DNA from: Escherichia phage A4 | Length of the DNA stretch: 64,000 nt | Sequence record: ON286972 | Reading direction: 5' to 3' (one strand) | Shown: positions 1 through 17,321 of the stretch, one piece after another | Numbering within the stretch: position 1 is the first letter of the stretch | Layout of the letters: every line of letters begins with the position of its first letter | The notes under the pieces: model-generated | Seen by the model: the letters and a program-made list of their open reading frames with translations, nothing else | Told to the model about the DNA's origin: nothing | The model's database searches: none | Program-made: the position numbers and the translations under genes

Positions 1-1
1 C

Positions 2-1255: not shown

Positions 1256-1266
1256 GGAAACAAAAT

Positions 1267-1617: not shown

Positions 1618-1623
1618 TAATAT

Positions 1624-2139
1624 ATGAATGAAATTGAATTATTAACGCACAAGATTAGTACAATAATGCTTATGCTCAAAAATAATCATCCTATACATAA
1701 GTACATTGATATAGATGAATTACGCATAGAAGATAGGCATGGTAAATTATCGTTTATGTTTCACAATGCAAATAATGCAGGGAATGTTAACGTTTGTATT
1801 GCAGCATTTACCCAAGCCAATCCAGTACAAACATCTCCTGTTGTATACGAAAATAAAGAAGGGTATTTGTGGGTAAACACAAACGATTATTTCTTTTATG
1901 ATTTGAAACAAGATGATGAAGTAGAAGAACGAATTGATTTAATTGATATTAGTACAGATTGTAGTGCTGAATTATTTCAGAAATCGTTATTATATAGTCC
2001 TCGTCAAATGCATTATCTAAAGTTATTCAGTTCATTGTACGCGAATCCTTTAATTAAGGGTTTTAAATTTTATATAAAAGTTCCTGACATTCAAGCAGTT
2101 TATGATATTTTGATGCAAGGATATAGTTATGAAGTATAA
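1624..2139 (+). CDS. hypothetical protein, FQxS-motif paralog family
   Basis: Motif AELFQKSLLYSP. Confidence 0.55.
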   Translation: MNEIELLTHKISTIMLMLKNNHPIHKYIDIDELRIEDRHGKLSFMFHNANNAGNVNVCIAAFTQANPVQTSPVVYENKEGYLWVNTNDYFFYDLKQDDEVEERIDLIDISTDCSAELFQKSLLYSPRQMHYLKLFSSLYANPLIKGFKFYIKVPDIQAVYDILMQGYSYEV

Positions 2140-2437
2140 AATGCTTTATACAAAAGATATGATTTATGTTGAATTAGAAGGCGATGAAGACGGTTGGAAT
2201 TTGATTTATTCAAGTAGTTCAGGTTGGTACATGGCACATTTAAATGATAACGAAGTTACAGATTATTTTGTAGATTTCAATACATTATCAGACGAAGAAT
2301 TGTTTCAACAGCAATTAGTGATTGACACGGGTGGTTATGATGTGTTATTATTAAAAAAGATACAGAAAGCTGTTATGAATTTTAATGCCCAAGTATCCGA
2401 ATGGGAAAGGAAATATTATGACCTCGAAGTACAATAA
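2129..2437 (+). CDS. hypothetical protein, FQxS-like (divergent)
   Basis: Motif EELFQQQLVID. Confidence 0.5.
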   Translation: MKYKMLYTKDMIYVELEGDEDGWNLIYSSSSGWYMAHLNDNEVTDYFVDFNTLSDEELFQQQLVIDTGGYDVLLLKKIQKAVMNFNAQVSEWERKYYDLEVQ

Positions 2438-2786
2438 TACATTTGATATTAATAAGTTAACAGAATGGTTTTATAATATTGAAATTGAAGCTATTCCGTA
2501 TCACAAGTACGAACAACGTGATTTGCGTAGTATAGATATTCGTGAGTTGTACGAGTATTATCAGAGTGCATTAGAGATGCATAAGATATTTTTGAGTACA
2601 GAATACATGACACGTTGTAATGATGCGTTTGATGAATTCAAGAAGAATGATAATTTAGTACAGAAATATGTAATAGCAAAGTACATGTACCTTCAGGGAA
2701 TTACAAGTATAGTGGAATTCAATACAGTTCTTGCTTTAGTTGAGATTATTTTATTATGCAAAAATGTAAAGTGGAATTTAGTTTAG
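2385..2786 (+). CDS. hypothetical protein
   Basis: ORF-track ORF; start uncertain (alternative ATG ~2418). Confidence 0.45.
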   Translation: MPKYPNGKGNIMTSKYNNTFDINKLTEWFYNIEIEAIPYHKYEQRDLRSIDIRELYEYYQSALEMHKIFLSTEYMTRCNDAFDEFKKNDNLVQKYVIAKYMYLQGITSIVEFNTVLALVEIILLCKNVKWNLV

Positions 2787-3253
2787 AGAGTGCTGTACAG
2801 TACGTTAAGTACATTGAAGGTGTATACAATATAATGAAAGCATATGAAGGAAAAGGATATGCTTCAATAAATCACAAATATGATTACATCAACAATCAGT
2901 TAGAAGAATCAAATTCAGGTAAAGTGCTTTTTAGTTTTTTATATTTTGCTCCTGACAATGTATATCCTGATGAAGATGATCTTCGTCTGGATAGAGATGA
3001 CCTGTGGTATATGTATCCAGGACGTGATAAGCCAATGGATGATGCTTTGTTGGAAATCAAATACAGTACAGAACCATTGACACCGGAGTTGTGGTTCCAG
3101 TACAGTACAATACATGAAGAAATTGATATCTTTTTCTACGCAATATACAAGATGCTTTATGAGAATGGTGTGCTTAAGAATCATGTATATTTTTATTTCC
3201 AGCAAATGAAAAATGTATATGAGTCCTTTTACCCAACCGAGCCTGTATCGTAA
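2756..3253 (+). CDS. hypothetical protein, FQxS-motif paralog family
   Basis: Motif ELWFQYSTIHEE. Confidence 0.55.
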   Translation: MQKCKVEFSLESAVQYVKYIEGVYNIMKAYEGKGYASINHKYDYINNQLEESNSGKVLFSFLYFAPDNVYPDEDDLRLDRDDLWYMYPGRDKPMDDALLEIKYSTEPLTPELWFQYSTIHEEIDIFFYAIYKMLYENGVLKNHVYFYFQQMKNVYESFYPTEPVS

Positions 3254-3278
3254 GATATGGGCTTTTTTCGTTTTGGTA

Positions 3279-3307
3279 TTGACATAGAAGACCAAAGCTG
3301 TTATCAT
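3279..3307 (+). promoter_or_regulatory. sigma70-like promoter (TTGACA-17-TATCAT)
   Basis: Hexamers read in intergenic spacer upstream of 3334; AGGAG RBS follows. Confidence 0.4.
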
Positions 3308-3333
3308 GTGTATTCATTTTAAAGGAGACATTT

Positions 3334-3858
3334 ATGGCGAGTTTCATGATCCCAAGTACATACGAAGATGCATCAAGTGCAGTGTATAAGGTTCATTATA
3401 TTTTTAATTTAATTATTAGTGCATCAAAAAATAAAATGTATGCACCTCTTGTGAAATATGATAAAAATGAGGAAATTTTTGTTAGCACAGAACAAACGAT
3501 TTTTCCATATTTCAAAGAAGATAGATTGTGGTTCATGCATTCAGTCGTATTACAAAGATATAATATAACAAGGTCCAATGAGCATGATTATTTGGATATA
3601 CAATTAGATCAACCCGATATTGGAGAGGATGAATATTTTCAGTACAGCACAGTACACCACCATGAAGATATCTTTGCTGCTATGCTTATTGCTAAATTGA
3701 ACACCGTTGATTTGGAGCAGCACAAATACAATAATAAATCATGTAAGATCATAATCCCTGCATTCATTGCTCTTTATGATTACATTGTGCATAACAAAAA
3801 AGATGATACCTATGCTTTCAATGAAGAGTATTTGGATTTTTTTAAGGAGAACATATGA
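3334..3858 (+). CDS. hypothetical protein, FQxS-motif paralog family
   Basis: Motif EYFQYSTVHHHED; RBS AGGAG upstream. Confidence 0.6.
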   Translation: MASFMIPSTYEDASSAVYKVHYIFNLIISASKNKMYAPLVKYDKNEEIFVSTEQTIFPYFKEDRLWFMHSVVLQRYNITRSNEHDYLDIQLDQPDIGEDEYFQYSTVHHHEDIFAAMLIAKLNTVDLEQHKYNNKSCKIIIPAFIALYDYIVHNKKDDTYAFNEEYLDFFKENI

Positions 3859-4379
3859 GCAGTTCAACAATACAGAAAGCAATGACATTCAATGAAATTG
3901 GTGCATTTAAAGATAAGATTATTGATTGTATTGAATACGCGATTTGTAGTAATATCAAAAGTATAGAGGTATTTAACAAGTCAAATCGCTCTTACCATAT
4001 GATGTACATTGCAAACAATAATGGTATCATTCCATTTGTTTCGGATAGTACAATATGGTTCGCTTGCGATGTGAAAAAATACACAATAGGTTCATATGTC
4101 TTCGGTAAACATGGTGATCTAATTATTCCTGAGCATTGTATGCAAGAAGAAGAATATTTTCAAAAGCAATGTGTACATGAACCATTAGAGATGGTTGCTT
4201 TATATATGATACCTTATATCTCTAAATGTGTTCATGAGAATAAAGCTCCGTGGAATCATGAATTTGTATCGTTGAAGTTATTGTATAATGTTTTAGTACA
4301 ATATTATGATTACAGGCACAATGGTACAATCAGTGATGTATGGGATTTCGAAAATTTAAGGGTAAGTACATATGCATAA
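3855..4379 (+). CDS. hypothetical protein, FQxS-motif paralog family
   Basis: Motif EEYFQKQCVHEP; ATGA overlap with upstream gene. Confidence 0.55.
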   Translation: MSSSTIQKAMTFNEIGAFKDKIIDCIEYAICSNIKSIEVFNKSNRSYHMMYIANNNGIIPFVSDSTIWFACDVKKYTIGSYVFGKHGDLIIPEHCMQEEEYFQKQCVHEPLEMVALYMIPYISKCVHENKAPWNHEFVSLKLLYNVLVQYYDYRHNGTISDVWDFENLRVSTYA

Positions 4380-5010
4380 TTTTCCCAGAAATGCTTCACC
4401 GTATGAGGTGATGAAGTTCATGGAGCCTCATGTTCCTTATATGTTTGAAATGCTAAAGAAGTTCAATGCTATTTTCCCTGAGAATTCAAAATTGGAGATT
4501 CCATTTGATTCCGCATCCAGATACAGTGCATCCTGTGGTAAATTAGTTTTAGTTATCGGTAGTGACAGAATTGGTTTCAGGGAAGTATTTGACACGTCAT
4601 TAGCATTTGGTATATTCGATAACAACAATAACATCACATACATTGACAAGTACATTTGCGACATAGCAGGTTCCTCTAAGCCTGATTCCTTTGTGGATTC
4701 AGTTGCAGATTATGGTGTTTCAAAAGATGGTAATGTAATAAGTACAAAGACGTTCATATCATTATCGTTAGAAGATGACATATGTTACATTGCAGGTCAA
4801 GAGTACGAGGGTGTAGAGGAAGTGCTTTTTCAAATGTCCTTAGTACAGAAGGATATGGTGGACCCTACCGAAATCCTGAAGTTGTGCAAATATGCGAATG
4901 AGTACAAGAAATTGATTGAACCTGGGTTTAGTTTCAGTGCACAGAGTCCACATTTTCAGATAAAAGTATATGAAGATTTCATTTTGAAGTTAAAAGAGAT
5001 TGTGTTATAA
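4372..5010 (+). CDS. hypothetical protein, FQxS-motif paralog family
   Basis: Motif EVLFQMSLVQKD. Confidence 0.55.
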   Translation: MHNFPRNASPYEVMKFMEPHVPYMFEMLKKFNAIFPENSKLEIPFDSASRYSASCGKLVLVIGSDRIGFREVFDTSLAFGIFDNNNNITYIDKYICDIAGSSKPDSFVDSVADYGVSKDGNVISTKTFISLSLEDDICYIAGQEYEGVEEVLFQMSLVQKDMVDPTEILKLCKYANEYKKLIEPGFSFSAQSPHFQIKVYEDFILKLKEIVL

Positions 5011-5053
5011 TACGCTATAACATGCAATAACACACAATACAACAAAGACGGGA

Positions 5054-5599
5054 GTGATTGATATGATCCAGCACAAACATTTTGAGTACGAGTTCGCTGA
5101 CAATTTAGTAAAAATCGTACAGGCGTTTGAGGCTGGGGATTTTGACCACATCTATCCTAAGCACAAGGAAGGATGGCTTGAGCCTAAGAGCGATATTGAA
5201 CAGTATCCCTCTATTGTGTATTACAGGAGAGATACGGTAATGCACGCTGTAGGTGAGAAGATGCAGTTAGAGTATTGTCTTTTGTTCAATGCTATTACAT
5301 CGGCTACATCAGCATCTGAAGAGTTCGCTCCAGTGAATTGGATTCGTTATTTGGATATGAGCAAGAGAGAGGAAGAAACCTTTTTTGGTTTAACAAAGCA
5401 CGTTGATATTGCAACCTTAAATCCTAACATCCTGAGTCCTGAAGAATATTTTCAGGAGTCCTTAGTACAAGATCCTTATGTTTTACAGGTGCAGCAAGTA
5501 TATAATGTATTACGTGCTAATGTGAAAACGAATTTCTTTTTAGCTTTAACGTGGTACGATAGGTTAGTAAAAGATCTCAAAGAGATTAAGGGGGAGTAA
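5054..5599 (+). CDS. hypothetical protein, FQxS-motif paralog family
   Basis: Motif EEYFQESLVQDPY. Confidence 0.6.
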   Translation: MIDMIQHKHFEYEFADNLVKIVQAFEAGDFDHIYPKHKEGWLEPKSDIEQYPSIVYYRRDTVMHAVGEKMQLEYCLLFNAITSATSASEEFAPVNWIRYLDMSKREEETFFGLTKHVDIATLNPNILSPEEYFQESLVQDPYVLQVQQVYNVLRANVKTNFFLALTWYDRLVKDLKEIKGE

Positions 5600-6165
5600 T
5601 GCTGGACCTTCAGGACATAGAAAGTACATGCAAAGTGATAGAAGATGATTTAGAATACATCAAGGGGTTGTATTTAATTGTAGATAGGATTTACAAAAAT
5701 CCGAATGCGTTTCAGGAAACGTACCAGCATGATAAATTTCGTCACGATGCAATCATTACGCTTATGTCGGATTTATCGATTTACGAAAGAAAATCCAACA
5801 AATCACATAGTGTATTATTTGTGAGTACAGATAGATTTTACAGTACAACATCAATTTGTTCAGATGTATCATGTGCATGGTTCAGTTCAAATGAATATAT
5901 AACAGTTAAAAATAATGGCGAAAATGAGAAATTAAAAGTAAGTGAGCTTATTGATTTGATGCCATATAGTCCTGATGTAGTGTTTCAGTACAGTACATTG
6001 CACGATTATAATTCAATACGATATCGTTATTTTGTTAAGCATTATTATGATACCTTCGGGGAGTTAACGGAGAAGTTAACGTTGAGATTTGACAGAGATA
6101 TCGATCTCGTTGCATTGAATCAGTACCTTCAGGAAGTGTTTGATATAAACGCGGAAAAGGGGTAA
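5599..6165 (+). CDS. hypothetical protein, FQxS-motif paralog family
   Basis: Motif VVFQYSTLHDYN. Confidence 0.6.
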   Translation: MLDLQDIESTCKVIEDDLEYIKGLYLIVDRIYKNPNAFQETYQHDKFRHDAIITLMSDLSIYERKSNKSHSVLFVSTDRFYSTTSICSDVSCAWFSSNEYITVKNNGENEKLKVSELIDLMPYSPDVVFQYSTLHDYNSIRYRYFVKHYYDTFGELTEKLTLRFDRDIDLVALNQYLQEVFDINAEKG

Positions 6166-6379
6166 TTTTAAAATGATAAATATAGGCTTGTTTTTGGGGG
6201 CGTTTTGGGGGGTCAAAAAAATTTTCGCTGAAAAACATGTTAAGGTATATGTTTAATATAAAATTTTATATTGTGTTTTTCAGAGTACAGTTCATGTTTC
6301 CTTAAACAAAAAATACCCCCCGCCGCCGAACGTGCTCCTTATATTGGAGTTTACCTTATTAATTATAGTAGAGGTTATT

Positions 6380-6736
6380 ATGAGCAATGATTTTGCTATT
6401 CACAGTTTTTTCTACAAAAAGGTTGAGTTCTATTGTAATCTCGTTAAGGGTGATACCAATCATTCGTTGGACCAATATATTAAGTACACCTCAAATGGAT
6501 TTTCTTTTGTTGATTACGGTCGAGTTGGTGGTGGTGTTAATGAACCTATGCTGGACTATACAGAAATGGATGAGGCTACTCTATTTCAGGAATCATTAGT
6601 GTTCGATAAGAAATATATTTGTACACTAGATGAAGTTATTGGTATTCAGAATATCATGAAAGAATACTCTGCGAAGTGCATGATGGAATTAACTCAAGAT
6701 AAGCACAAGACTGTTCAGTGCTATTTCAATCTTTAG
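6380..6736 (+). CDS. hypothetical protein, FQxS-motif paralog family
   Basis: Motif ATLFQESLVFDKK; ATG at 6380 with GAGG RBS preferred over track start 6332. Confidence 0.55.
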   Translation: MSNDFAIHSFFYKKVEFYCNLVKGDTNHSLDQYIKYTSNGFSFVDYGRVGGGVNEPMLDYTEMDEATLFQESLVFDKKYICTLDEVIGIQNIMKEYSAKCMMELTQDKHKTVQCYFNL

Positions 6737-7092
6737 GGGTCTTAACTATGACATACAATGAATACCGTGAAATAGATCTTCTCCAGAATACATTATATGA
6801 AATTGAAGATTTAATGCACGGATGGACAAGTCTTTCTTTCTTTAATGAAATGTTCGAAGAAATAAAAGTAGTACTACAGAAAAAACATAATGGTACTAAA
6901 ATTAAAATAAAGACTTTCACTGGAGAAGTCTGGTGCGGAGAAATTGTGAAATACATTATAACTCGCAATAACGCATCATTCTGTTTGAATACTGGTCATT
7001 ACAGAAATCATTTCAACAATAGCAGTACTCAAGTTATTTCCGAGGAAGAATACAATGAGCACTGTAATAAACTTCTTAAGAGTAGATTCTAA
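6718..7092 (+). CDS. hypothetical protein
   Basis: ORF-track ORF; alternative start ~6748. Confidence 0.4.
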   Translation: MLFQSLGVLTMTYNEYREIDLLQNTLYEIEDLMHGWTSLSFFNEMFEEIKVVLQKKHNGTKIKIKTFTGEVWCGEIVKYIITRNNASFCLNTGHYRNHFNNSSTQVISEEEYNEHCNKLLKSRF

Positions 7093-7418
7093 TGAATACT
7101 AAAATATATGTTTCTTCAAGTACAATGGGAAGTGGTTTTACTTATACGTGCTTTTTTACTACATTGAATAAAACACCTATATTGATTATTCGTGATTTCA
7201 ATGAATGTAATATTGAGTACGTATCCAAAACAGATAAGCTTCCTAATTACATCGAATGTGAATACATGGAGAACTATGAAAGTTTTATATTTCAGGAATC
7301 ATTAGTATGGGATAAAGAAATCGATTTCTTTATGTACCTTGCATTACAAAAGTACTACAGAGATAACAAGGACAAAATAGTTCGTTCTTGCATTTATTCT
7401 ATTAATCTGGAGTACTGA
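7092..7418 (+). CDS. hypothetical protein, FQxS-motif paralog family
   Basis: Motif FIFQESLVWDKE. Confidence 0.55.
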   Translation: MNTKIYVSSSTMGSGFTYTCFFTTLNKTPILIIRDFNECNIEYVSKTDKLPNYIECEYMENYESFIFQESLVWDKEIDFFMYLALQKYYRDNKDKIVRSCIYSINLEY

Positions 7419-7589
7419 TGCTTAAAAAAGAACAAATGGAATCATTAATGAATGCAGTTATTCGTCGTTTTGTTAAAGACATTAGTCATAAAAACTGTAT
7501 TACAAATGACAGGTACGGTATAGAATTGTATATAGCTAATATTCACATGGCGTACAGAGAATATATTAAGACACGTCACAGGGGTTGAA

Positions 7590-8072
7590 ATGAGTTTAGA
7601 AAGTGCATTGAAAGAAGCAAAGAAGATTCATGAGTACATGAATATGGCAAAAGAAGGTTCAGTTTACGGTATTTTCAAAGACACAAGTACTCAATATTAT
7701 GTCTCTGATAACCTCATTGATAATGACTTCCCAGATACAGAAACGTGCGTACTAGATACCGACCCTAATGATTATGAATGTTTCATTGATATGCATAATG
7801 AGTACATGGTCTATGTTAATGATGGAGATATTACCATCTACAGTACTGTCCACGATACCGATGACATTATAATTCCGTGTGCAGTACTGGATGGTCCTTG
7901 GGATAGTGAAGAGTATTACTTCCAACAAAGTACTGTATACAATGAAGAAGAACTTGATTGTATTGTAATTATGTGGTACTTTAAAAGTATTGGTTCTGAG
8001 AACTTCTATTTCGATTACAGATACGTAAAGAAAACTGTAGATAACGGTATTAATAAACTTCACAGGGGTTGA
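7590..8072 (+). CDS. hypothetical protein, FQxS family, tandem copy 1 of 4
   Basis: N-terminus MSLESALKEAKKIHEYM, motif EYYFQQSTVYNEE..IMWYFKS; near-identical to 8984..9439. Confidence 0.65.
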   Translation: MSLESALKEAKKIHEYMNMAKEGSVYGIFKDTSTQYYVSDNLIDNDFPDTETCVLDTDPNDYECFIDMHNEYMVYVNDGDITIYSTVHDTDDIIIPCAVLDGPWDSEEYYFQQSTVYNEEELDCIVIMWYFKSIGSENFYFDYRYVKKTVDNGINKLHRG

Positions 8073-8073
8073 A

Positions 8074-8544
8074 ATGAGTTTAGAAAGAGCATTAGAGATT
8101 GCGAAGTTAATTGATTTATGCAGCAAAGAAATTGTATCAAATTGTCTCAATGGATATCTATTCAAGGAAGGTAAATCATATTGTCGAATGATATACGATG
8201 ACAGTAGTGAATATATTCATATGTATGAAGAAAATTTAGATTCTTCTGAAACAACACTCATTGGATGTGATGTTAATTTGGAAGATAATTACATGTACTT
8301 CTGTCGTGATGCTGATATTTTAATCCAAGATTCATTTATTCAAACAGGTGCACCAGAGGTATATATTCCGTATTCAGTACTGGATAATGACTGGGGAAGT
8401 GAAGAGTTCTACTTCCAGCAGAATACTATCTACGAGGAAGATGTGCTTGACAAGCTTGTCATTCTGTGGTACTTTAACAACACTGATTGTCCTAGCTTCT
8501 ATATGGACTTGGATCTATTACGAGTTATAAAAGAGGATATATGA
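8074..8544 (+). CDS. hypothetical protein, FQxS family, tandem copy 2 of 4
   Basis: MSLERALEIAK.., motif EFYFQQNTIYEED..ILWYFNN. Confidence 0.65.
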   Translation: MSLERALEIAKLIDLCSKEIVSNCLNGYLFKEGKSYCRMIYDDSSEYIHMYEENLDSSETTLIGCDVNLEDNYMYFCRDADILIQDSFIQTGAPEVYIPYSVLDNDWGSEEFYFQQNTIYEEDVLDKLVILWYFNNTDCPSFYMDLDLLRVIKEDI

Positions 8545-8984
8545 GTTTAGTAAGTGCACTTGAACTGGCACACAAAATACATCACTTCCACGATAACATA
8601 AAAAGTGGGTTCTATGGTGATAAAGTAAGTGCTTTTGGTAATGAGTATTATCTATCAGGTATAAAGACATACTCTGCTGATATTTTACTTATGGGTCATG
8701 ATAAAGACAATACTATACAGTACTCTTCATGTAGTCAATATACTAGTTTTATGGTATATATTCCAGGTACTAAGATTACTTTTGACACATCAAATTCACC
8801 TGTTGACTTCGGGGTACTTGATGGCCCGTGGGGTACTGAAGAGTATTACTTCCAACAGAGTCTCATTTTTAACCAAGAAATGCTTGATTCCTTGGTTGTG
8901 TTGTGGTACTTTAAGGAATTGAATTTTGAACCATTCTTTCTTGACTGGGGAGCATGTGAATATTTAAGTACAGGGGATTTGTAA
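8541..8984 (+). CDS. hypothetical protein, FQxS family, tandem copy 3 of 4
   Basis: MSLVSALELAHK.., motif EYYFQQSLIFNQE..VLWYFKE. Confidence 0.65.
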   Translation: MSLVSALELAHKIHHFHDNIKSGFYGDKVSAFGNEYYLSGIKTYSADILLMGHDKDNTIQYSSCSQYTSFMVYIPGTKITFDTSNSPVDFGVLDGPWGTEEYYFQQSLIFNQEMLDSLVVLWYFKELNFEPFFLDWGACEYLSTGDL

Positions 8985-9439
8985 TGTCGTTACAAAGTGC
9001 ATTGAAAGAAGCAAAGAAGATTCATGAGTACATGATTAAGGTCAAAGGTGGAGAAATTCCAGGTATCTTCAAAATGTCAGAGACTGAATATTGCACGAAG
9101 AATATTGAGGATTTTGATGGTTCTGATACATTAGTACTGCAATGTGATGATTATGATCATGATAATTGTGGTTATAACCCTTTGTACTACTTTATCAATT
9201 ACTACCCAGGGTCAGATATAACCGTATACAACCCTGATTATTATGCTAAAGATTTGACAATTCCGTTTTCAGTACTGGATGGTCCGTGGGATAGTGAAGA
9301 GTATTACTTTCAGCAAAGTACTGTATATACTGAACATGAACTCGATACTCTGGTCATTATGTGGTACTTTAAAAGTATAGATTCAACATGTTTCTATATG
9401 GATTATGAATACATAGAGACACAGAAATATAAGAGGTAA
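8984..9439 (+). CDS. hypothetical protein, FQxS family, tandem copy 4 of 4
   Basis: MSLQSALKEAKKIHEYM, motif EYYFQQSTVYTEHE..IMWYFKS. Confidence 0.65.
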   Translation: MSLQSALKEAKKIHEYMIKVKGGEIPGIFKMSETEYCTKNIEDFDGSDTLVLQCDDYDHDNCGYNPLYYFINYYPGSDITVYNPDYYAKDLTIPFSVLDGPWDSEEYYFQQSTVYTEHELDTLVIMWYFKSIDSTCFYMDYEYIETQKYKR

Positions 9440-9444
9440 TTGTA

Positions 9445-9891
9445 ATGTTTTTTTATTATTATGAAGTAAATGATAAGTTGGTTCAGGATATTGTACAAAT
9501 AATCAAGTACTTCAATGATAATCCTAACGTATTGGGTAGTGAGCTTGAATACGAGAAAGGTGGGTGTGTATATTTTACTTTCTGTGGTGGGTGCTCGGAA
9601 GAGCAATCATTTTTCAATTCTTATTCAAATTACATCTCCTATAATGCACTTGCAGACGAGTTGATTGTGGTACGTGACAGTAGTGATGACCGTACAGTGT
9701 ATACCAGAGAGACAATACAAAGTGTAGGTAATGAAGAAGGATACTTTCAATTGAGTACAGTACTGAATCATGAAGAACTACATGTATTACGTTTGTTTTA
9801 TCTTATTAGTACTATGAACTTGAAGCACGATCAGGTATACATTGATTTAGATTACTTTGAGTACTTACGTAAGATTAGTTCTAAAAAATAA
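9445..9891 (+). CDS. hypothetical protein, FQxS-motif paralog family
   Basis: Motif GYFQLSTVLNHEE; C-terminal VYIDLDYFEYL. Confidence 0.6.
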   Translation: MFFYYYEVNDKLVQDIVQIIKYFNDNPNVLGSELEYEKGGCVYFTFCGGCSEEQSFFNSYSNYISYNALADELIVVRDSSDDRTVYTRETIQSVGNEEGYFQLSTVLNHEELHVLRLFYLISTMNLKHDQVYIDLDYFEYLRKISSKK

Positions 9892-9902
9892 GTTCATGCT
9901 AT

Positions 9903-9929
9903 TGACAAGAGCCTGTACTGTGTTACAAT
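9903..9929 (+). promoter_or_regulatory. sigma70-like promoter (TTGACA-15-TACAAT)
   Basis: Hexamers in spacer upstream of 9964; spacer shorter than optimal. Confidence 0.3.
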
Positions 9930-9963
9930 GCACAGTAATATTAATTAAAAAGGTGCACATGAA

Positions 9964-10497
9964 ATGATTATTAATGCTTACAATGCTGAGGAAATGCAGG
10001 AATTATCTCGTAAAATCAACATTATAGTTCCTTTGCTTAAGGATTGCAGTACTGGTTTGATTCCATCACGAGACATTATTAAAGAAGGATACTACCTACA
10101 GGCAGTCTATAAGGGTGGTACATTTCATCGTTGTCGTGTATTACGTGATGGCCTTCCTGCACTTACACTCATTGGTATTGGTATTGCCGTATGCGGTACG
10201 AACCGTTTGTACTTGAATGAAAAAAATCAAATCATGAATTTGTTTTATACAGGAAAAAGTACTGAATTATATTTTGGTATTCAGAACTGGTGGGATACCG
10301 TAAAGAGTAGTACTATTGAAATCCCGAAATACAATTACAACTCATTTGAAGAGCAGATGTTTCAATTGTCATGTACTGATGACATGTACATGATTCTACG
10401 TCTCTATATGGAGATGCAAATGAACTTCAGAAGTAATTTATACATTGATACTTCAACATTTGAATTCGAAGATGTATTCGTTGATGGTATATTATGA
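9964..10497 (+). CDS. hypothetical protein, FQxS-motif paralog family
   Basis: Motif QMFQLSCTDDMY; C-terminal LYIDTSTFEFE. Confidence 0.55.
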   Translation: MIINAYNAEEMQELSRKINIIVPLLKDCSTGLIPSRDIIKEGYYLQAVYKGGTFHRCRVLRDGLPALTLIGIGIAVCGTNRLYLNEKNQIMNLFYTGKSTELYFGIQNWWDTVKSSTIEIPKYNYNSFEEQMFQLSCTDDMYMILRLYMEMQMNFRSNLYIDTSTFEFEDVFVDGIL

Positions 10498-10721
10498 AGT
10501 ATATTCCAAAACACCAGTACTACAGGATGTGTTCTGACATTTACACAAAATGGAATACATTTCATCCCCTTTTGAAGAAGAGGCGTCCATATCATGATTA
10601 TAAGTTGAATCATTTTCTTGGAACTAATTATCAAGAGGTTGTAATGAAAGATTACATTTTTAACCTTCAGAAATTAATTCAGAATAAAGTTCAAGGAAAG
10701 GGGGAGTCCACGTGGGTATAA
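10494..10721 (+). CDS. hypothetical small protein, FxLGT-motif family
   Basis: Motif NHFLGTNYQEVVMKDYIFNL. Confidence 0.4.
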   Translation: MKYIPKHQYYRMCSDIYTKWNTFHPLLKKRRPYHDYKLNHFLGTNYQEVVMKDYIFNLQKLIQNKVQGKGESTWV

Positions 10722-10918
10722 GACACAGAGACATGCAAGATATTCTTAACCAATACAGTGCTCAAATGTTCACTGCAATCAGGTCTTCCAATCAAAATGA
10801 CGTGTCGGAATTACAGTTACTGATGTACATAGGGACACAATACCAGGAGGCTTCAGTTGAGACGTATATTAAGTACCTATTGGGTATTATAAGGATGAAA
10901 AATGGACAATACTTTTGA
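10712..10918 (+). CDS. hypothetical small protein, FxLGT-motif family
   Basis: Motif LLMYIGTQYQEASVETYIKYL. Confidence 0.45.
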   Translation: MGIRHRDMQDILNQYSAQMFTAIRSSNQNDVSELQLLMYIGTQYQEASVETYIKYLLGIIRMKNGQYF

Positions 10919-11138
10919 ACAAGCACCAGCATCGGATTTTAGTTATGGGTTTATTATAGATATATTTTCTGGTACTGAAGCATCTGATATACCTCTTTAT
11001 ATCTTTGCTAATATGCGTTATATTTTTCGTATTGCAGAGGACAGTGATAAATCTGATATGTCTTTTATGATTAAAAAAATCATATACTTATCGTGCTATG
11101 AATATATGAATGAAATGAGCGAACACTATGACCTATGA
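10902..11138 (+). CDS. hypothetical protein
   Basis: ORF-track ORF; no motif recognised. Confidence 0.35.
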   Translation: MDNTFEQAPASDFSYGFIIDIFSGTEASDIPLYIFANMRYIFRIAEDSDKSDMSFMIKKIIYLSCYEYMNEMSEHYDL

Positions 11139-11676
11139 TGAGATAATTTCTTTTGCAAATAAGTTAAGTACACTAACCAAATTGACGGAAGTAGTACTGC
11201 AAGATGAGCGTATACTTTCTAGGAGTGAGCTAATTGTTTCACAAAACGATTCCATGACGTATATGTCTTTCAGATCGTCAGGCCGAACAATTATTAAGTT
11301 CGGTTCTGTTCCTGAAACAAATGGAAAATTATCTATGTGCACACATAATAATGGGGAATTGTATGGATTAGTGTACAGAAAAGATTCGACAGTACTGAAT
11401 ACTTTCAATGCAGGTGCGAGTGCAGTTGATGTTACATCATTGAGTGATGTTGACAAATACATAGATTTACCACACCTTGAAATTAATGAAGAAAGTGTTT
11501 TTCAGTTAAGTACAGTGCACAATGATATTGAAGTGTTTGGTATTTCTTTATGGAATATCCTTCGTTTAAGGGATGATGCTCCTGTATTTGTATATGCAAA
11601 TTATGAAGACATTGATACTTGTATTGATGAAATGGAGAAATACATTGATCAATTTAAACAAAACTTCCACATTTGA
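11128..11676 (+). CDS. hypothetical protein, FQxS-motif paralog family
   Basis: Motif SVFQLSTVHNDIE. Confidence 0.6.
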   Translation: MTYDEIISFANKLSTLTKLTEVVLQDERILSRSELIVSQNDSMTYMSFRSSGRTIIKFGSVPETNGKLSMCTHNNGELYGLVYRKDSTVLNTFNAGASAVDVTSLSDVDKYIDLPHLEINEESVFQLSTVHNDIEVFGISLWNILRLRDDAPVFVYANYEDIDTCIDEMEKYIDQFKQNFHI

Positions 11677-12223
11677 TATTCACGAGAAAGCTAAGCTACT
11701 TATCAGTACTGCTGAATATTATTACGATACAGTACTGAGTCAATCACCTTCTACATTTCGTGATTTAGTTAAATCATTTAATAAAACACAAAAAGATTGT
11801 GAGCTTTCATATAATGGTGTGAACTTTATGTATATTAAACCATATATGTCAAAGCGTGATTTGATTAAATGCAATGATGATTTCAAGATTGATCGTGATT
11901 TAAATCGTTTCTTCTACGATGTAAGAAGCAATCTGTATCAACTTACATTAAATTCCAGTACTTCTTTCATTATTGGATTGGGTAAGAATTTAGGTACTGG
12001 TACTTCATTTTATAATAAAGGTGAAGTACAAGATGTGGATCTCAATCCAAGTACTGATGTTGCATTCCAACAGGATTTGATTATGGATGTGGATTCAGCA
12101 GCTACATACAGTTCTAATGTTCTGTGCAAGGAATTTCAGAATTCCAAAATTCTTGAGTTATTGTACATTGCGGATTGCAATATACTGTACAAATTTTGTA
12201 CTCATCTGAAGGAGATTTTATGA
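11573..12223 (+). CDS. hypothetical protein, FQxS-like (divergent); start uncertain
   Basis: Motif VAFQQDLIMDVD; long overlap with upstream gene suggests a later start. Confidence 0.45.
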   Translation: MMLLYLYMQIMKTLILVLMKWRNTLINLNKTSTFDIHEKAKLLISTAEYYYDTVLSQSPSTFRDLVKSFNKTQKDCELSYNGVNFMYIKPYMSKRDLIKCNDDFKIDRDLNRFFYDVRSNLYQLTLNSSTSFIIGLGKNLGTGTSFYNKGEVQDVDLNPSTDVAFQQDLIMDVDSAATYSSNVLCKEFQNSKILELLYIADCNILYKFCTHLKEIL

Positions 12224-12588
12224 AAAAAGAAATTAGAATCCAATTCGGTATGAGGAAAAAAGAGGTCATTTGCACACTGAATCATGCGGTCGTGGAAAGG
12301 TTTGATGCATTACAAAAATTCTCCCATTTTGTTCTTGTACTATATGAAAATGGGTCTTTTAAAATCTTCACTTATGATGATTCAAAAAATTATCGTAATG
12401 ATTTTGTAAATCTTACAGTACTGTCAGAAGAGGAATTCTTTCAGGAAAGTACAGTCTGGGATTTACCAGGAGCACCAATTGAATACGTCCGTGCTACACA
12501 GGCAGAAATGATCAAAGCAATGCAGAACTATCCAGAAGATCATATGACTAAGTTTCCTGAATCTATTCATGTAGAGGTTGAGTACTGA
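12220..12588 (+). CDS. hypothetical protein, FQxS-motif paralog family
   Basis: Motif EFFQESTVWDLP; ATG at 12220 with GGAG RBS. Confidence 0.55.
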   Translation: MKKEIRIQFGMRKKEVICTLNHAVVERFDALQKFSHFVLVLYENGSFKIFTYDDSKNYRNDFVNLTVLSEEEFFQESTVWDLPGAPIEYVRATQAEMIKAMQNYPEDHMTKFPESIHVEVEY

Positions 12589-12926
12589 TGGATTTAGTAA
12601 AAGTTACTATAGCCAAACATCAGTACTATGTAATGATTGAGTTAGGTTATAACCACAAGAAAGAACATTTTTATTATCTTACATATGAAAAGAATATGTT
12701 CAAGATAATCACTAATAATTTAGCACGAGATGTATTTCATATTTTTGATTACAGTGATTATAGTGAGGAAGAGTTATTTCAGGAATCATTAGTATGGGAG
12801 TACAATAGAATTGTAGATATTGAAAAGTTAATTAAGTATCAACAACTAATGAAAGATATAATGAATAACTATCCATGTGAACTACAAAGAGAACTGGAAT
12901 TTATTGTCCAATACAAAGAGGTTTAA
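12588..12926 (+). CDS. hypothetical protein, FQxS-motif paralog family
   Basis: Motif ELFQESLVWEYN. Confidence 0.6.
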   Translation: MDLVKVTIAKHQYYVMIELGYNHKKEHFYYLTYEKNMFKIITNNLARDVFHIFDYSDYSEEELFQESLVWEYNRIVDIEKLIKYQQLMKDIMNNYPCELQRELEFIVQYKEV

Positions 12927-12928
12927 TT

Positions 12929-13465
12929 ATGTTAGATTATGACAGAATAGAGAAAGATGATTGGGACGGTACTCACCATTTAAAGGTTGACACTTTTGAA
13001 CACGCTCGCAGTACTGCTCAAGATCTTATGCAAATCCATGAGTTCATTTGTAATAACAGAGAGACTTCTATTTGGGTAAAATCTGACAGATTTATTGATT
13101 CAAGTTATGATTACTTCAGTATTCGTTCAAGAGGTCTGGATGATGACGGGTACAGTGTTGATATGTTCAATATCAACAAATTTAATGACCCTGAATATGA
13201 TCCAAAATACAGCGGTGGCTTTTTAAGTTATTCACCTGACTATGACAGAATAAAGTTCTTTTATGAAGAGGCAGACATTGTTATACCATTTATAGAAGAA
13301 GAACTTACCGAAGAACTGTTCTTTCAGATGAGTACTGTTGACGACCCGTACATAGTTGGTGTACAATTCATGTTCTCTTGGCTTAAACAGAATAACTTCC
13401 CTCCTTTTTATGTTGACCTTACTTTTTACGATCTAATTTGGAATTTTGTTCGTAATCCATCTTGA
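12929..13465 (+). CDS. hypothetical protein, FQxS-motif paralog family
   Basis: Motif LFFQMSTVDDPY; C-terminal FYVDLTFYDLI. Confidence 0.6.
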   Translation: MLDYDRIEKDDWDGTHHLKVDTFEHARSTAQDLMQIHEFICNNRETSIWVKSDRFIDSSYDYFSIRSRGLDDDGYSVDMFNINKFNDPEYDPKYSGGFLSYSPDYDRIKFFYEEADIVIPFIEEELTEELFFQMSTVDDPYIVGVQFMFSWLKQNNFPPFYVDLTFYDLIWNFVRNPS

Positions 13466-13490
13466 CACCTCCTTCTGTGCATGATATAAT
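13462..13490 (+). promoter_or_regulatory. sigma70-like promoter (TTGACA-17-TATAAT)
   Basis: Consensus hexamers with 17-nt spacer upstream of 13522. Confidence 0.5.
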
Positions 13491-13521
13491 CTTTTTCATC
13501 TAATACGAAAAGGATCATATC

Positions 13522-14019
13522 ATGCAATTCAATCCTGAACTCTCATACAGTAATGCTATAACTTTTGCAGACAATTTAATTCGCATTCATAACTTTTTAA
13601 GAGATGTTGAAACTAATTTTGACGTTACATATGTGGACCCCAAAAGTGGAGAGATGTTTACCGATACAGTACAGGTATCCAGTATTCTGTCATTTCGTAT
13701 GCATATGCTATACAGCAAAGTTGAAGCACATAATAATGTAAGAATTCTTGGTTCGTCATTCTTTGGATTCAATGCGAAAGCGAAAGGTACACTTCGTTTT
13801 TATAAAGAATTTTTGGAGTGCGAAGAGATAGATCTCATTGATATCAATGATGAGTGTGAATACTTTCAGTACTGCACAATCTATTCAGAAGATGTGGTTT
13901 TTGCATTAACTGCAATATCTGAATTGCATAAAAAATTACCACCAGATGCCCAATTTTACTTTGACCTTAGTGATTATGATATCATGTTGGATCATATTAA
14001 TCGTGTAGGAGAATTGTAA
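13522..14019 (+). CDS. hypothetical protein, FQxS-motif paralog family
   Basis: Motif EYFQYCTIYSED; C-terminal FYFDLSDYDIM. Confidence 0.6.
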   Translation: MQFNPELSYSNAITFADNLIRIHNFLRDVETNFDVTYVDPKSGEMFTDTVQVSSILSFRMHMLYSKVEAHNNVRILGSSFFGFNAKAKGTLRFYKEFLECEEIDLIDINDECEYFQYCTIYSEDVVFALTAISELHKKLPPDAQFYFDLSDYDIMLDHINRVGEL

Positions 14020-14522
14020 TGCCTGATATTAGCAAACTTAATTACGATGAGATTGAACAGTACGCAAAAGATATCTACGAAATCTATGATGAATTCAAGA
14101 ACAATACTACAGCATTTGGTTCAATGTATTCTCGAAAAAAGAGTCTTAACAGGGATAGGAAAAGTTGTTTAACATATACACAGAAATCAGGCGAAATGAT
14201 GGAAATCTTCTGTGAATCATTTGATGATAGTGAATATAGTGTAGGCATGAATTACCTATCTTACTCAAAAGAAGGTGAAGTTGTAGTAGATTTACGTGAT
14301 GAAAAGGGTCGTAATAAAAAGAGTAGTATCAAGGAAGAAGATGTAAAACTAATTTCTGAAGAAGATTACTTTCAGTTAAGTACTACTATGAATATGTTGG
14401 TATTGAATGTCATAACACTCTACGGTTTCCTCCGATATAAGCATGAAATTGAAACTGACTTCTATTTTGATTTGAATGATTTTGAAGTATGCAAGGGATA
14501 TCTAAATGGGAAAAGTAGTTGA
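14019..14522 (+). CDS. hypothetical protein, FQxS-motif paralog family
   Basis: Motif DYFQLSTTMNM; C-terminal FYFDLNDFEV. Confidence 0.6.
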   Translation: MPDISKLNYDEIEQYAKDIYEIYDEFKNNTTAFGSMYSRKKSLNRDRKSCLTYTQKSGEMMEIFCESFDDSEYSVGMNYLSYSKEGEVVVDLRDEKGRNKKSSIKEEDVKLISEEDYFQLSTTMNMLVLNVITLYGFLRYKHEIETDFYFDLNDFEVCKGYLNGKSS

Positions 14523-14844
14523 TATTGAGTACATGCACGATGGTGATGAAATTTTTATTGTCCAAAAAGAATGCAAGGCTGGACATTGGGTTATCTTCTC
14601 TGTAGAAGAGGATGAATCCATTGTATCTTTTATTTCTACTAAACATAAAGATACGAATTTGGAACTTCTTTACAATTTAAGTGAAGAAGAACTATTTCAA
14701 ATGAGCACTACATTTGAATATGATGTATACGAATTATTAGATGTACAGAATATTTTGTTGGAGTCTCTTCAGAAACTAAAACACAAAGATTTATTTCTGG
14801 TTAAATCATTTATGATGCACAAATTTACACTTGAGGTGGATTAA
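14506..14844 (+). CDS. hypothetical protein, FQxS-motif paralog family
   Basis: Motif ELFQMSTTFEYD. Confidence 0.55.
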   Translation: MGKVVDIEYMHDGDEIFIVQKECKAGHWVIFSVEEDESIVSFISTKHKDTNLELLYNLSEEELFQMSTTFEYDVYELLDVQNILLESLQKLKHKDLFLVKSFMMHKFTLEVD

Positions 14845-15275
14845 TGTATTTTGAAATTATAAAAGTTAAATCAAAGGCTTTACTTAATACAAGATTTCAA
14901 ACGTATGGTTGCACTCATAGTGTAATGCTGGATGATAATAACGAATTGTATTATTCTAAAGTAACACAACCAGTACCGGAGAATAAATTCTATATCTATT
15001 CTCACAAAGATAACTCACAATATGACATTGAGAATCTCGCTGTAATGCCACCTGACGAGCTATTTCAGTACAGCTTAGTATGTCCTTACCGTGGTGATAT
15101 TGACCTTCTCAAGAAGATTCAGGAGGGTTTAATGGACTTTGTGCCTAAGTCTAACCCTGAATATTTTTCAACTAATGTAGAGTTTTTAAAGATCGAAAGA
15201 GAAATTCCTGATTATATGCTTAGTGATGATGAGTTCTACGATAAGCATTTCCCAGGAAAAAAATGGAGAGATTAA
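14844..15275 (+). CDS. hypothetical protein, FQxS-motif paralog family
   Basis: Motif ELFQYSLVCPYRGD. Confidence 0.55.
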   Translation: MYFEIIKVKSKALLNTRFQTYGCTHSVMLDDNNELYYSKVTQPVPENKFYIYSHKDNSQYDIENLAVMPPDELFQYSLVCPYRGDIDLLKKIQEGLMDFVPKSNPEYFSTNVEFLKIEREIPDYMLSDDEFYDKHFPGKKWRD

Positions 15276-15745
15276 TGACATTCCAGGAAGATATTGATTT
15301 TGCAAAAAAGATTTACAAAATTCATCTTATAATGGAAAGTACTGAGTTCCAAAAGCGTTCATATGTCGATAAGATTAAAAGCTGTGATAAAAGTTCATTT
15401 GTCATAAAACTACCCACATTCAAATCCAAAAGAGAGGCCATCTACGCTACGATTTATGATGATTCAGAATACAATCTAATGGATTTGTACATGACCTTTA
15501 CCCCTGGGAATACACTTGTATGTTACTTCCAATGGGAGGAAGAGACAATTGTACTTGATAATATAGGTTCTTATAAGCCTACTGAAGAGACGCACTTTCA
15601 GTTATCTTTGATCTATACAGAAGAAACAGTTCGTGCTATAATGTTGTATTCATATCTCAATAGTGTAAATGCCAGTGCTTTCTATCTGGATTTAGTACAT
15701 CTTGAACTTATTGAGGAATTACTTGCAGAGGAACTTTCTCTATGA
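15275..15745 (+). CDS. hypothetical protein, FQxS-motif paralog family
   Basis: Motif THFQLSLIYTEE; ATG at 15275 overlaps upstream stop. Confidence 0.55.
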   Translation: MTFQEDIDFAKKIYKIHLIMESTEFQKRSYVDKIKSCDKSSFVIKLPTFKSKREAIYATIYDDSEYNLMDLYMTFTPGNTLVCYFQWEEETIVLDNIGSYKPTEETHFQLSLIYTEETVRAIMLYSYLNSVNASAFYLDLVHLELIEELLAEELSL

Positions 15746-16212: not shown

Positions 16213-16221
16213 AGGTGCTAT

Positions 16222-17317: not shown

Positions 17318-17321
17318 TTGA

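What the first reader, a model, noticed from the sequence alone, without database searches (positions are those of the whole stretch)
7590..9439. Four near-identical tandem copies mark very recent duplication inside the array
Genes 7590..8072, 8074..8544, 8541..8984 and 8984..9439 share N-termini (MSL(E/V/Q)(S/R)AL..A.KI) and C-terminal cores (LDGPW(D/G)(S/T)EEYYFQQS..WYF(K/N)). Copies 1 and 4 share long identical nucleotide runs, for example agtgcattgaaagaagcaaagaagattcatgagtacatga, and the upstream junction 'cacaggggttgaaatgag' is also duplicated. Duplication here is ongoing, probably by unequal recombination, and the middle copies have diverged in the N-terminal half.
Basis: seen in the sequence. 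Interest (0 to 1): 0.5.

Follow-up and report, generated by a model that had tools for sequence, protein, structure and literature searches.

The report
Old diverged tandem paralogues, still recombining
The four neighbouring genes are real relatives, but they are old, strongly diverged copies (28-51% protein identity) within a 42-gene family of a giant E. coli phage, not a fresh duplication; comparison with other phage genomes does show that copies are still being lost and patched by recombination at the short conserved gene starts.

Summary
The window is Escherichia phage A4, an Asteriusvirus (121Q/PBECO4-like) jumbo phage. The four ORFs, their shared N- and C-terminal motifs, the 42-nt exact run (7600-7641 = 8994-9035) and the repeated junction (28 nt exact; 7576-7603 = 8060-8087) are all real.

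The copies are not near-identical. Protein identity is 51% for c1-c4 and 28-36% for the other pairs, and synonymous sites are saturated (dS >= 1).

c1, c2 and c3 each have positional orthologues in at least 25 related genomes, so these duplications predate the sampled genus diversity; c4 is a divergent lineage at the same position. "Very recent duplication" is refuted.

"Ongoing unequal recombination" is supported, but as loss and patching rather than gain:
- A 98.3%-identical genome lacks exactly one 467-bp unit, leaving a c2/c3 fusion gene.
- Seven phages lack c1, whose ends in the window are the junction repeat.
- The subfamily has 2-5 detectable copies across 35 phage genomes.
- c1 and c4 show low dS only in the N-terminal patch (0.18) and the core (0.51), against 1.84 in the middle, which points to gene conversion.

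The proteins are small and acidic, and the c1 orthologue is not in the virion. They belong to a 42-member family restricted to Rak2-like phages, with a confident predicted fold that matches no solved structure. Function is unknown; an early host-interaction role is inferred.

The parts
7418..7588 (+). 56-aa upstream gene. Its last ~25 nt, together with the start of the next gene, form the left copy of the junction repeat. It has a homologue directly upstream of c2 in fEgEco12 (61 aa).
7576..7603 (+). Left copy of the 28-nt exact junction repeat TCACAGGGGTTGAAATGAGTTTAGAAAG. It covers the last codons and stop of the preceding gene, a GGGG ribosome-binding stretch and the first 14 nt of the next gene.
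7590..8072 (+). c1 (160 aa, A4_354). Orthologue of 121Q gp370, and closest paralogue of c4. Its first 14 nt are c2-type and nt 11-52 are identical to c4. Its last ~25 nt copy the tail of the 56-aa gene, which is a duplication scar.
7600..7641 (+). 42-nt exact run shared with c4 (8994-9035). It lies in an N-terminal patch with dS 0.18.
7884..7985 (+). Conserved core of c1 (VLDGPWDSEEYYFQQS...WYFK). The same core lies at about 8377-8477, 8814-8914 and 9272-9373 in c2-c4.
8060..8087 (+). Right copy of the 28-nt junction repeat, at the c1/c2 boundary.
8074..8544 (+). c2 (156 aa), orthologue of 121Q gp371. This 467-bp unit (8074-8540 by register; the crossover lies within its first ~18 nt) is the one missing from GCA_036253495.1.
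8541..8984 (+). c3 (147 aa), orthologue of 121Q gp372. It is the most conserved of the four across phages (91-97% nucleotide identity).
8984..9439 (+). c4 (151 aa). It sits where 121Q gp373 sits but is a divergent lineage (54-56% protein identity, dS about 1.0-1.1), although its first ~52 nt are 93-97% identical to gp373-type genes. Homology with relatives ends at 9419.
8994..9035 (+). The copy in c4 of the 42-nt exact run.
9902..9929 (+). Sigma-70-like promoter (TTGACA, 16-nt spacer, TG-TACAAT) in the first intergenic gap downstream of the quartet. It marks the start of the next transcription unit.

Best explanation
The four genes are an old, diverged but functional subfamily (PHROG 9317) of a family with 42 members in window 11-28412. 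The window is Escherichia phage A4, an Asteriusvirus jumbo phage.

Shown:
- The copies arose by tandem duplication of whole gene units, ribosome-binding junction included, before the sampled Asteriusvirus genomes diverged.
- c1 is a c4-like copy whose 3' end carries a copy of the tail of the upstream 56-aa gene. This is a duplication scar, and it is present in all c1 orthologues examined.
- Each gene has since been kept by purifying selection (dN/dS 0.06-0.6). c1 in the A4 lineage is relaxed or diversifying (0.6-1.1).
- The cluster is still being remodelled. A 467-bp one-unit deletion fuses the c2 start to c3 in a 98.3%-identical genome. c1 is present or absent, and the junction repeat bounds it. 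A fifth member present in relatives is absent here. Detectable copy number is 2-5.

Inferred from the breakpoint positions:
- The remodelling happens by recombination or replication slippage between the short conserved stretches at gene starts and junctions (13-28 nt).

Inferred from patchy synonymous divergence:
- Short-tract gene conversion keeps the c1 and c4 N-terminal and core segments alike while the middle diverges.

Inferred only, about 30-35% likely:
- The products are small acidic cytoplasmic proteins made early from host-type promoters.
- A conserved helical frame (N-terminal helix plus the EExYFQxS/WYFK helices) presents a hypervariable beta-sheet surface that binds host or defence components.
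- The array would then be a diversified repertoire maintained by birth-and-death evolution.
For: Identity of the window: c1 is 100% identical to A4_354, and other members are named as A4 genes.

Divergence:
- Protein identity is 28-51%.
- dS is at least 1 for all pairs.

Orthology:
- The block 7588-9419 is colinear at 85-87% with 121Q gp370-373, PBECO4, SP27 and JP4.
- A neighbour-joining tree groups c1, c2 and c3 by position, not by genome.
- 25 of 35 phage records have 5 subfamily members, 7 have 4 (no c1) and 3 have 2.

Recent deletion:
- L008 (GCA_036253495.1, a 352-kb contig) matches window 4503-8096 and 8541-13439 at 98.3%, with one unit missing.
- The junction reads as c2 for 18 nt and then as c3, giving MSLERALELANKIH....
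- A metagenome contig (L010) has the window's four-copy arrangement.

c1 polymorphism:
- fEgEco12 has the homologue of the 56-aa gene directly before c2.
- The window has 28-nt exact repeats on both sides of c1.
- The similarity extends to 46 nt at 91%, into the tails of both genes.

Conversion between c1 and c4:
- At identical residues, identical codons number 13 of 14 in the N-terminus (6.2 expected), 21 of 27 in the core (12.7 expected) and 14 of 24 in the middle (11.6 expected).
- dS is 0.18, 0.51 and 1.84 in the same three segments.

Selection: dN/dS values are.

Family:
- An iterated HMM finds 42 members, with F-Q invariant.
- There are 180 cluster representatives among 1.84 billion proteins.

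Protein:
- The AF2 model has pLDDT 88.8 and pTM 0.85.
- Among viral models, only uncharacterised proteins of Rak2-like phages match.
- There are no Pfam or NCBIfam hits.
- Median pI is 4.7.

Not in the virion: the phAPEC6 proteome lists no protein between gp347 and gp549, and the c1 orthologue is gp442c.

Early promoters: strong sigma-70-like sites lie in the few intergenic gaps.
Against: - The direction of the c1 polymorphism (loss in the fEgEco12 group, or gain elsewhere) is not resolved.
- The low dS in the N-terminal and core segments could partly reflect selection on the nucleotide sequence (translation initiation, codon choice) rather than conversion. The segments are short (20 and 34 codons).
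- The overall count of promoter-like sites is no higher than in shuffled sequence (123 vs 117). Only their position and strength is suggestive, and I found no transcript data.
- Nothing links the proteins to any target or defence system. Fold and sequence searches are blank.
- The virion-absence argument rests on one proteome of a related phage.
Confidence: 0.75

Rival explanations
1. One reading: the four copies are products of very recent, ongoing duplication within this phage's own lineage.
For: The copies are adjacent and in the same orientation. There is a 42-nt exact run between c1 and c4, and a 28-nt exact junction repeat. They are the most similar pairs in the array.
Against: - Protein identity is 28-51% and dS is at least 1.
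- Orthologues of c1-c3 sit at the same positions in at least 25 genomes.
- The junction scar at the c1 3' end is present in every c1 orthologue examined.
- The only recent event seen is a deletion in a sister genome.
Confidence: 0.03
2. There is no gene conversion. The conserved N-terminal and core segments, including their synonymous sites, are explained by purifying selection on the protein plus codon bias and constraints on translation initiation. The junction repeat is just a conserved ribosome-binding and coupling signal.
For: - The motif ACAGGGG..ATG also occurs at the c3/c4 junction in a different reading frame, which shows nucleotide-level constraint on the junction.
- A 25-28-nt part of the run is shared by c1 and c4 in all phages examined.
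- Other paralogue pairs also show a modest excess of identical codons in the core.
Against: - For c1-c4, identical codons number 13 of 14 against 6.2 expected. The N-terminal dS of 0.18 is ten times lower than the 1.84 of the middle.
- At four sites within nt 12-25, the A4 c1 differs from every other c1 orthologue examined, and each change makes it identical to c4. This is the signature of a transferred patch.
- The window's c4 is 93-97% identical to gp373-type genes over its first ~52 nt but 50-64% beyond that.
Confidence: 0.15
3. The copy-number differences are assembly or annotation artefacts, that is, collapsed repeats in short-read assemblies.
For: GCA_036253495.1 is a draft bacterial assembly. 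Repeat collapse is common in such data.
Against: - c2 and c3 share no exact run longer than 13 nt and are only 57% identical, too little for an assembler to collapse.
- The junction is an in-frame fusion gene.
- The arrangement lacking c1 recurs in seven independently sequenced phages.
Confidence: 0.04
4. The proteins are packaged virion or inner-body proteins, as with the paralogous inner-body families of phiKZ-like phages. The conserved N-terminus would be a targeting signal and EExYFQ|xS a protease site.
For: - 121Q and phAPEC6 have an inner body (PMC5646251; PMC7247149, abstract read).
- The family is paralogous, acidic and highly variable, with a conserved N-terminus and an invariant FQ that resembles the TEV site ENLYFQ/S (the resemblance is from my own knowledge).
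Against: - None of the 62 virion proteins of phAPEC6 lies between gp347 and gp549, whereas the c1 orthologue is gp442c.
- In the confident model the FQ motif sits inside a helix packed in the conserved core, which does not suit a cleavage site.
- The host-type promoters suggest early, not late, expression.
Confidence: 0.05

Closest known systems
The tandem gene array of phage 121Q and jumbo-phage paralogue expansions noted in the literature
   Same: Hua et al. [quoted passage not shown] The RaK2 paper states that about 10% of its gene products are paralogues (PMC3622015). [quoted passage not shown] The window's quartet is orthologous to 121Q gp370-373.
   Different: None of these papers, in the text I could read, gives gene numbers, subfamily structure, copy-number polymorphism, breakpoints or conversion. 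I could not confirm that their array is this one. The members here are far from 'very similar' (median 19% protein identity).
Multigene families (MGF360/505 and others) of African swine fever virus (own knowledge, not tested)
   Same: Arrays of diverged tandem paralogues toward a genome end of a large DNA virus. Copy number differs between isolates through recombination. The products are non-structural.
   Different: Eukaryotic virus and unrelated sequences. MGF function in interferon evasion is established by experiment, whereas here function is only inferred.
Poxvirus 'gene accordions' (K3L amplification) (own knowledge)
   Same: Recombination-driven expansion and contraction of tandem copies in a large DNA virus.
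   Different: Accordion copies are identical, arise within passages under selection and collapse quickly. Here the copies are anciently diverged (dS >= 1) and individually conserved across genomes. Only contraction is observed.
Deletions and duplications between short direct repeats in T4/T7-type phages (own knowledge)
   Same: The breakpoints fall in 13-28-nt repeats at gene starts, and the fusions are in frame, as in the c2/c3 fusion of GCA_036253495.1.
   Different: Here the repeats are conserved coding and ribosome-binding segments of paralogues. The process therefore removes or adds whole gene units and yields functional chimeras.
PHROG families 9317, 12674, 34017 and 13866 (unknown function)
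   Same: All four genes match phrog_9317 (E 4e-47 to 5e-61). 27 of 52 aligned family members match phrog_12674.
   Different: These PHROGs carry no functional annotation and split one superfamily into many small families.

Membership tests
Recent tandem duplication (near-identical segmental copies) | Copies nearly identical in nucleotide sequence along their whole length | tested here: not met
   Global nucleotide identity is 57-64% and protein identity 28-51%. The middle regions are 31-55% identical.
Recent tandem duplication (near-identical segmental copies) | Low synonymous divergence between copies | tested here: not met
   Overall dS is 1.0-3.1 for all six pairs. Only the c1-c4 N-terminal segment (0.18) and core (0.51) are low.
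Recent tandem duplication (near-identical segmental copies) | Copies absent from close relatives (lineage-specific) | tested here: not met
   c1-c3 have positional orthologues in 121Q, PBECO4, SP27, JP4 and EC.P1. 25 of 35 genomes have the full set.
Tandem multigene family evolving by birth-and-death with unequal recombination | Head-to-tail paralogues of common descent, duplicated as whole units | tested here: met
   Four same-strand units spaced 484, 467 and 443 nt share start, core and junction sequences. A duplication scar sits at the c1 3' end.
Tandem multigene family evolving by birth-and-death with unequal recombination | Copy number differs between related genomes, with breakpoints in the shared segments | tested here: met
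   The 467-bp unit deletion has its crossover within the first ~18 nt of c2 and c3. c1 absence is bounded by the junction repeat. Detectable copies number 2-5.
Tandem multigene family evolving by birth-and-death with unequal recombination | Individual copies kept by purifying selection | tested here: met
   dN/dS between orthologues is 0.06-0.6 for c2, c3, c4-type and n5, and 0.57-1.14 for c1 of the A4 lineage.
Tandem multigene family evolving by birth-and-death with unequal recombination | Copy-number heterogeneity within one phage population | not testable with these tools
   This needs long reads or PCR on A4 lysates.
PHROG 9317 | Significant full-length match to the profile | tested here: met
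   E-values are 4.5e-61, 7.4e-55, 1.1e-54 and 3.8e-47, covering nearly the whole profile.
Virion / inner-body protein families of jumbo phages | Detected in purified virions | tested here: not met
   The phAPEC6 virion proteome (62 proteins) contains none between gp347 and gp549, and the c1 orthologue is gp442c. The evidence is indirect, from one related phage.
Known anti-defence or host-takeover protein families (Ocr, ArdA, Acr and others) | Sequence or fold similarity to a characterised member | tested here: not met
   There are no Pfam or NCBIfam hits. One member has an insignificant ArdA hit (E 0.07). No PDB fold match was found and no PDB sequence match.
Known anti-defence or host-takeover protein families (Ocr, ArdA, Acr and others) | Early expression and an effect on host defence | not testable with these tools
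   The only support is sigma-70-like promoters in the intergenic gaps and acidity.

The most novel reading that the evidence does not exclude
The 42-gene array is a previously uncharacterised, phage-specific 'repertoire' system. A new protein fold has a fixed helical frame, with an invariant F-Q, and a hypervariable beta-sheet face. It is expressed early from host promoters, and its members each neutralise a different host defence or host factor. The conserved 5' and core nucleotide segments would act as built-in recombination handles. These handles would let phages shuffle, delete and replace cassettes, as seen in the c2/c3 fusion, the mosaic c1 5' end and the swapped middle of c4. The array would be a bacteriophage counterpart of the multigene families of large eukaryotic DNA viruses.
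Probability: 0.25. Interest if true: 0.65.

Novelty: new member of a known kind. Interest (0 to 1): 0.3.

Why it matters
The finding as written, a fresh duplication, is not correct, so it does not flag a genome caught in the act of expanding.

The corrected picture is more modest. It is a well-resolved case, in a jumbo phage, of how a large orphan gene family is maintained. Whole-gene units are lost and fused at 13-28-nt conserved gene starts. Short conversion patches keep the ends alike. The middles diverge under purifying selection.

This bears on how jumbo phages reached their genome sizes, where tandem duplication has been proposed (PMC5646251). It also identifies a family with 42 copies in this window that has a confident but unmatched predicted fold and no known function. 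That family is a reasonable target for anti-defence or host-takeover screens.

Tried and rejected
- Chimera test. I asked whether the window's c4 is a fusion of a gp373-type 5' part and a gp374-type 3' part, which would explain the missing fifth member. The protein C-terminus looks gp374-like (DTL, DST, K.KR), but 60-nt sliding windows give no clear switch (75-80% to both), and the last ~60 nt are closer to gp373-type genes. Rejected as unsupported.
- A scar of the c3 tail upstream of c1 in 121Q-type genomes. BLAST extended about 24 nt upstream, but by eye the match is at the level expected for AT-rich sequence. Not used.
- Rfam scan of the whole window: no hits. The G-run/C-run hairpin in the 6165-6380 gap has z = -2.1 only.
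- Literature searches for transcriptomics of Asteriusvirus, or for a description of this family, found none.
- The global count of promoter-like sites is not enriched over shuffles. Only the strongest sites in intergenic gaps were used, and then only as suggestive evidence.
Full report
**What the window is.** The first 28 kb of the window is a dense, single-strand array of small genes at 33.7% G+C. The c1 protein is 100% identical to A4_354 of Escherichia phage A4 (355.5-kb contig), and other array members carry A4 names. The nearest database phages are Asteriusvirus jumbo coliphages (121Q, PBECO4, SP27, JP4, fEgEco12 and others). They cover only 8-28% of window 1-20000 at megablast level, so this part of the genome is highly mosaic. 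The quartet is one of its best-conserved islands.

**Checking the observation.**
- The four ORFs lie exactly where stated and are tightly coupled.
- The N-terminal and core motifs are present, with small deviations in c2.
- The quoted identical run is part of a 42-nt exact match (7600-7641 = 8994-9035). The longest run in 200 shuffles was 14 nt.
- The quoted junction is part of a 28-nt exact direct repeat (7576-7603 and 8060-8087) that occurs only twice in the window. It extends to 46 nt at 91%.
- The repeat finder independently recovers four copies of a 42-nt gene start (71-90% identical to c1) and of a 101-nt core (74-87%), spaced 484, 467 and 443 nt apart.

The copies are not near-identical, however. 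Protein identity is 51% for c1-c4 and 28-36% for the other five pairs. Global nucleotide identity is 57-64%. In 60-nt windows the middle of c1 against c4 is only 31-55% identical. Relative to the array they are still the closest relatives. An iterated HMM finds 42 family members between 11 and 28412. Of the 861 pairs, the quartet holds ranks 1-5 and 8, against a median of 19% protein and 47% nucleotide identity.

**Age of the duplications.**
- Nei-Gojobori dS between the four copies is saturated (1.0-3.1 overall).
- The block 7588-9419 is colinear at 85-87% with 121Q gp370-373 and with the same four genes of PBECO4, SP27 and JP4.
- A neighbour-joining tree groups c1, c2 and c3 with their positional counterparts in six other phages, not with each other.
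- Identity of the window genes to their orthologues is 87-89% nucleotide for c1, 90-93% for c2 and 91-97% for c3. dS is 0.05-0.35.
- A tblastn survey finds five subfamily members in 25 of 35 phage records, four in seven and two in three.

The duplications therefore predate the sampled genus diversity, and "very recent duplication" is refuted. Orthologue dN/dS of 0.06-0.6 shows that the copies are maintained genes. c1 of the A4 lineage is relaxed or diversifying (0.57-1.14).

**Evidence that the cluster is still being remodelled.**
1. A 352-kb contig in assembly GCA_036253495.1 (L008) matches window 4503-8096 and 8541-13439 at 98.3% and lacks exactly the 467 bp between them. At the junction the sequence follows c2 for 18 nt (ATGAGTTTAGAAAGAGCA) and then c3, giving an in-frame fusion (MSLERALELANKIH...). 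c2 and c3 share no exact run longer than 13 nt, so assembly collapse is implausible. A metagenome contig (L010) has the window's four-copy arrangement.
2. fEgEco12 and six similar phages lack c1. The homologue of the window's 56-aa gene (7418-7588) sits directly before c2, with a single copy of the junction. In the window, c1 lies between the two 28-nt repeats, which is the arrangement expected before a deletion or after an insertion by recombination between them.
3. Relatives carry a fifth member (121Q gp374) after c4. The window has an unrelated family member there, and homology ends at 9419, 20 nt before the c4 stop.
4. The window's c4 is 93-97% identical to gp373-type genes over its first ~52 nt but only 50-64% in the middle, with overall dS of about 1.0-1.1. 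It is a different cassette behind a shared start.
5. c1 orthologues differ by a 21-nt internal tandem duplication (TETCVLD twice in 121Q, PBECO4 and SP27; once in A4 and JP4).

**The junction repeat is a duplication scar.** The last ~25 nt of c1 (TATTAATAAACTTCACAGGGGTTGA) copy the tail of the 56-aa gene (TATTAAGACACGTCACAGGGGTTGA). Upstream of that point, the c1 3' region follows c4. The scar is present, shortened by 9 nt, in every c1 orthologue examined. So c1 arose as a c4-like copy in an event that joined the c4 3' region to the tail of the 56-aa gene.

In A4 the first 14 nt of c1 are c2-type (ATGAGTTTAGAAAG). Nt 11-52 are identical to c4. At four sites within nt 12-25, all other c1 orthologues differ from A4. 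A simple scenario is a duplication spanning from the tail of the 56-aa gene to near the c4 3' end, followed by unit deletions between conserved gene starts of the kind seen in L008. That scenario is inference, and the order of events is not resolved.

**Gene conversion between c1 and c4.** The two measures give the same pattern.

| Segment | Identical codons at identical residues | Expected from codon usage | dS |
|---|---|---|---|
| N-terminal 20 codons | 13 of 14 | 6.2 | 0.18 |
| Core | 21 of 27 | 12.7 | 0.51 |
| Middle | 14 of 24 | 11.6 | 1.84 |
| Tail | not reported here | not reported here | 1.48 |

The N-terminal value is in the range of orthologue divergence. That fits short-tract exchange within the time span of the genus. 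Part of the signal may instead be nucleotide-level constraint. A 25-28-nt stretch is shared by c1 and c4 in all phages examined. The ACAGGGG..ATG junction motif also recurs at c3/c4 in a different reading frame.

**What the proteins are.**
- No Pfam or NCBIfam family matches. All four match phrog_9317, and the wider family matches phrog_12674 and others, all of unknown function.
- A profile of 52 sequences finds only 180 cluster representatives among 1.84 billion proteins. The named ones come from Asteriusvirus and Salmonella Munch-like jumbo phages.
- F111 and Q112 are invariant within an EExYFQxS motif.
- The AlphaFold model of c1 is confident (pLDDT 88.8, pTM 0.85). It has a long N-terminal helix, a beta-sheet over residues ~28-95 (the variable part), then helices carrying EEYYFQQ and ELDxxVIMWYFKS.
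- Members are acidic, with a median pI of 4.7.
- The phAPEC6 virion proteome has no entry between gp347 and gp549, whereas the c1 orthologue is gp442c, so the proteins are probably not packaged.
- The few intergenic gaps of the array hold strong sigma-70-like promoters at 3279, 9902, 13462 (12 of 12 matches) and 18525. Two of them follow hairpins. The overall count of such sites is not above shuffles.
- In fEgEco12 the homologous genes lie at about 39 kb of a genome with 21-kb terminal repeats (PMC13070987; coordinates).

From this I infer, with roughly one-third confidence, early-expressed cytoplasmic proteins that use a conserved frame and a variable surface to bind host or defence components. 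Nothing tests this directly.

**Comparison with what is known.** Hua et al. [quoted passage not shown] RaK2 and phAPEC6 papers make similar brief remarks. I found no description of this subfamily, its copy-number polymorphism or its breakpoints.

In kind, this is a tandem multigene family under birth-and-death evolution with unequal recombination and conversion. It resembles the multigene families of African swine fever virus. It differs from poxvirus gene accordions, whose copies are identical and transient (both comparisons from my own knowledge).

**Verdict.** It is a new member of a known kind and of modest interest.

Noticed in passing
window 11-28412: An iterated HMM finds 42 members of one protein family on the + strand, with an invariant F-Q in an EExYFQxS motif. 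Median pairwise protein identity is 19%. The family has only 180 cluster representatives among 1.84 billion proteins, all apparently from Rak2-like jumbo phages. The predicted fold matches no solved structure.
   Followed up: partly
window 5063-5599: This family member is named 'DNA ligase' in the GenBank record of phage A4 (USL83424.1). No Pfam or NCBIfam ligase domain is detected, so it is probably a misannotation.
   Followed up: partly
window 3279-3307, 9902-9929, 13462-13490, 18525-18553: Near-consensus sigma-70 promoters with an extended -10 sit in the few intergenic gaps of the array. Those at 3279 and 18525 follow terminator-like hairpins (3239-3264, 18491-18512). This suggests several early transcription units read by the host polymerase.
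   Followed up: partly
window 7730-7760 (c1); L001 about 3150-3200: c1 orthologues of 121Q, PBECO4 and SP27 carry a 21-nt internal tandem duplication (TETCVLD twice). The window and JP4 have one copy.
   Followed up: no
window 7092-7418: This 108-aa short family member is most similar (76% nucleotide identity) to 121Q gene 375. That gene lies downstream of the quartet in 121Q but upstream here, so gene order within the array differs between genomes.
   Followed up: no
window 6165-6380: This unusually long gap has a G-run (about 6196-6212) and a C-run (about 6312-6326) that can pair around an AT-rich stretch. Folding gives z = -2.1 only, and there is no Rfam hit. The true start of the next gene is probably the ATG at 6381 rather than the GTG at 6332.
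   Followed up: partly
family-wide, e.g. window 7908-7931: The motif EEYYFQ-QS resembles the TEV protease site ENLYFQ/S. In the model it lies in a helix of the conserved core, and there is no evidence of cleavage.
   Followed up: no
L008 and clusters: Many roughly 350-kb Asteriusvirus-like contigs are deposited inside E. coli and Salmonella genome assemblies. They are a ready source of extra genomes for copy-number surveys. They may reflect carrier-state infection or contamination.
   Followed up: no
L008 3558-3600: The c3 part of the c2/c3 fusion gene in GCA_036253495.1 has a 121Q-type c3 5' allele (GCACTAGAACTAGCCAAC) rather than the A4-type. This is another sign of short-patch exchange between lineages.
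   Followed up: no
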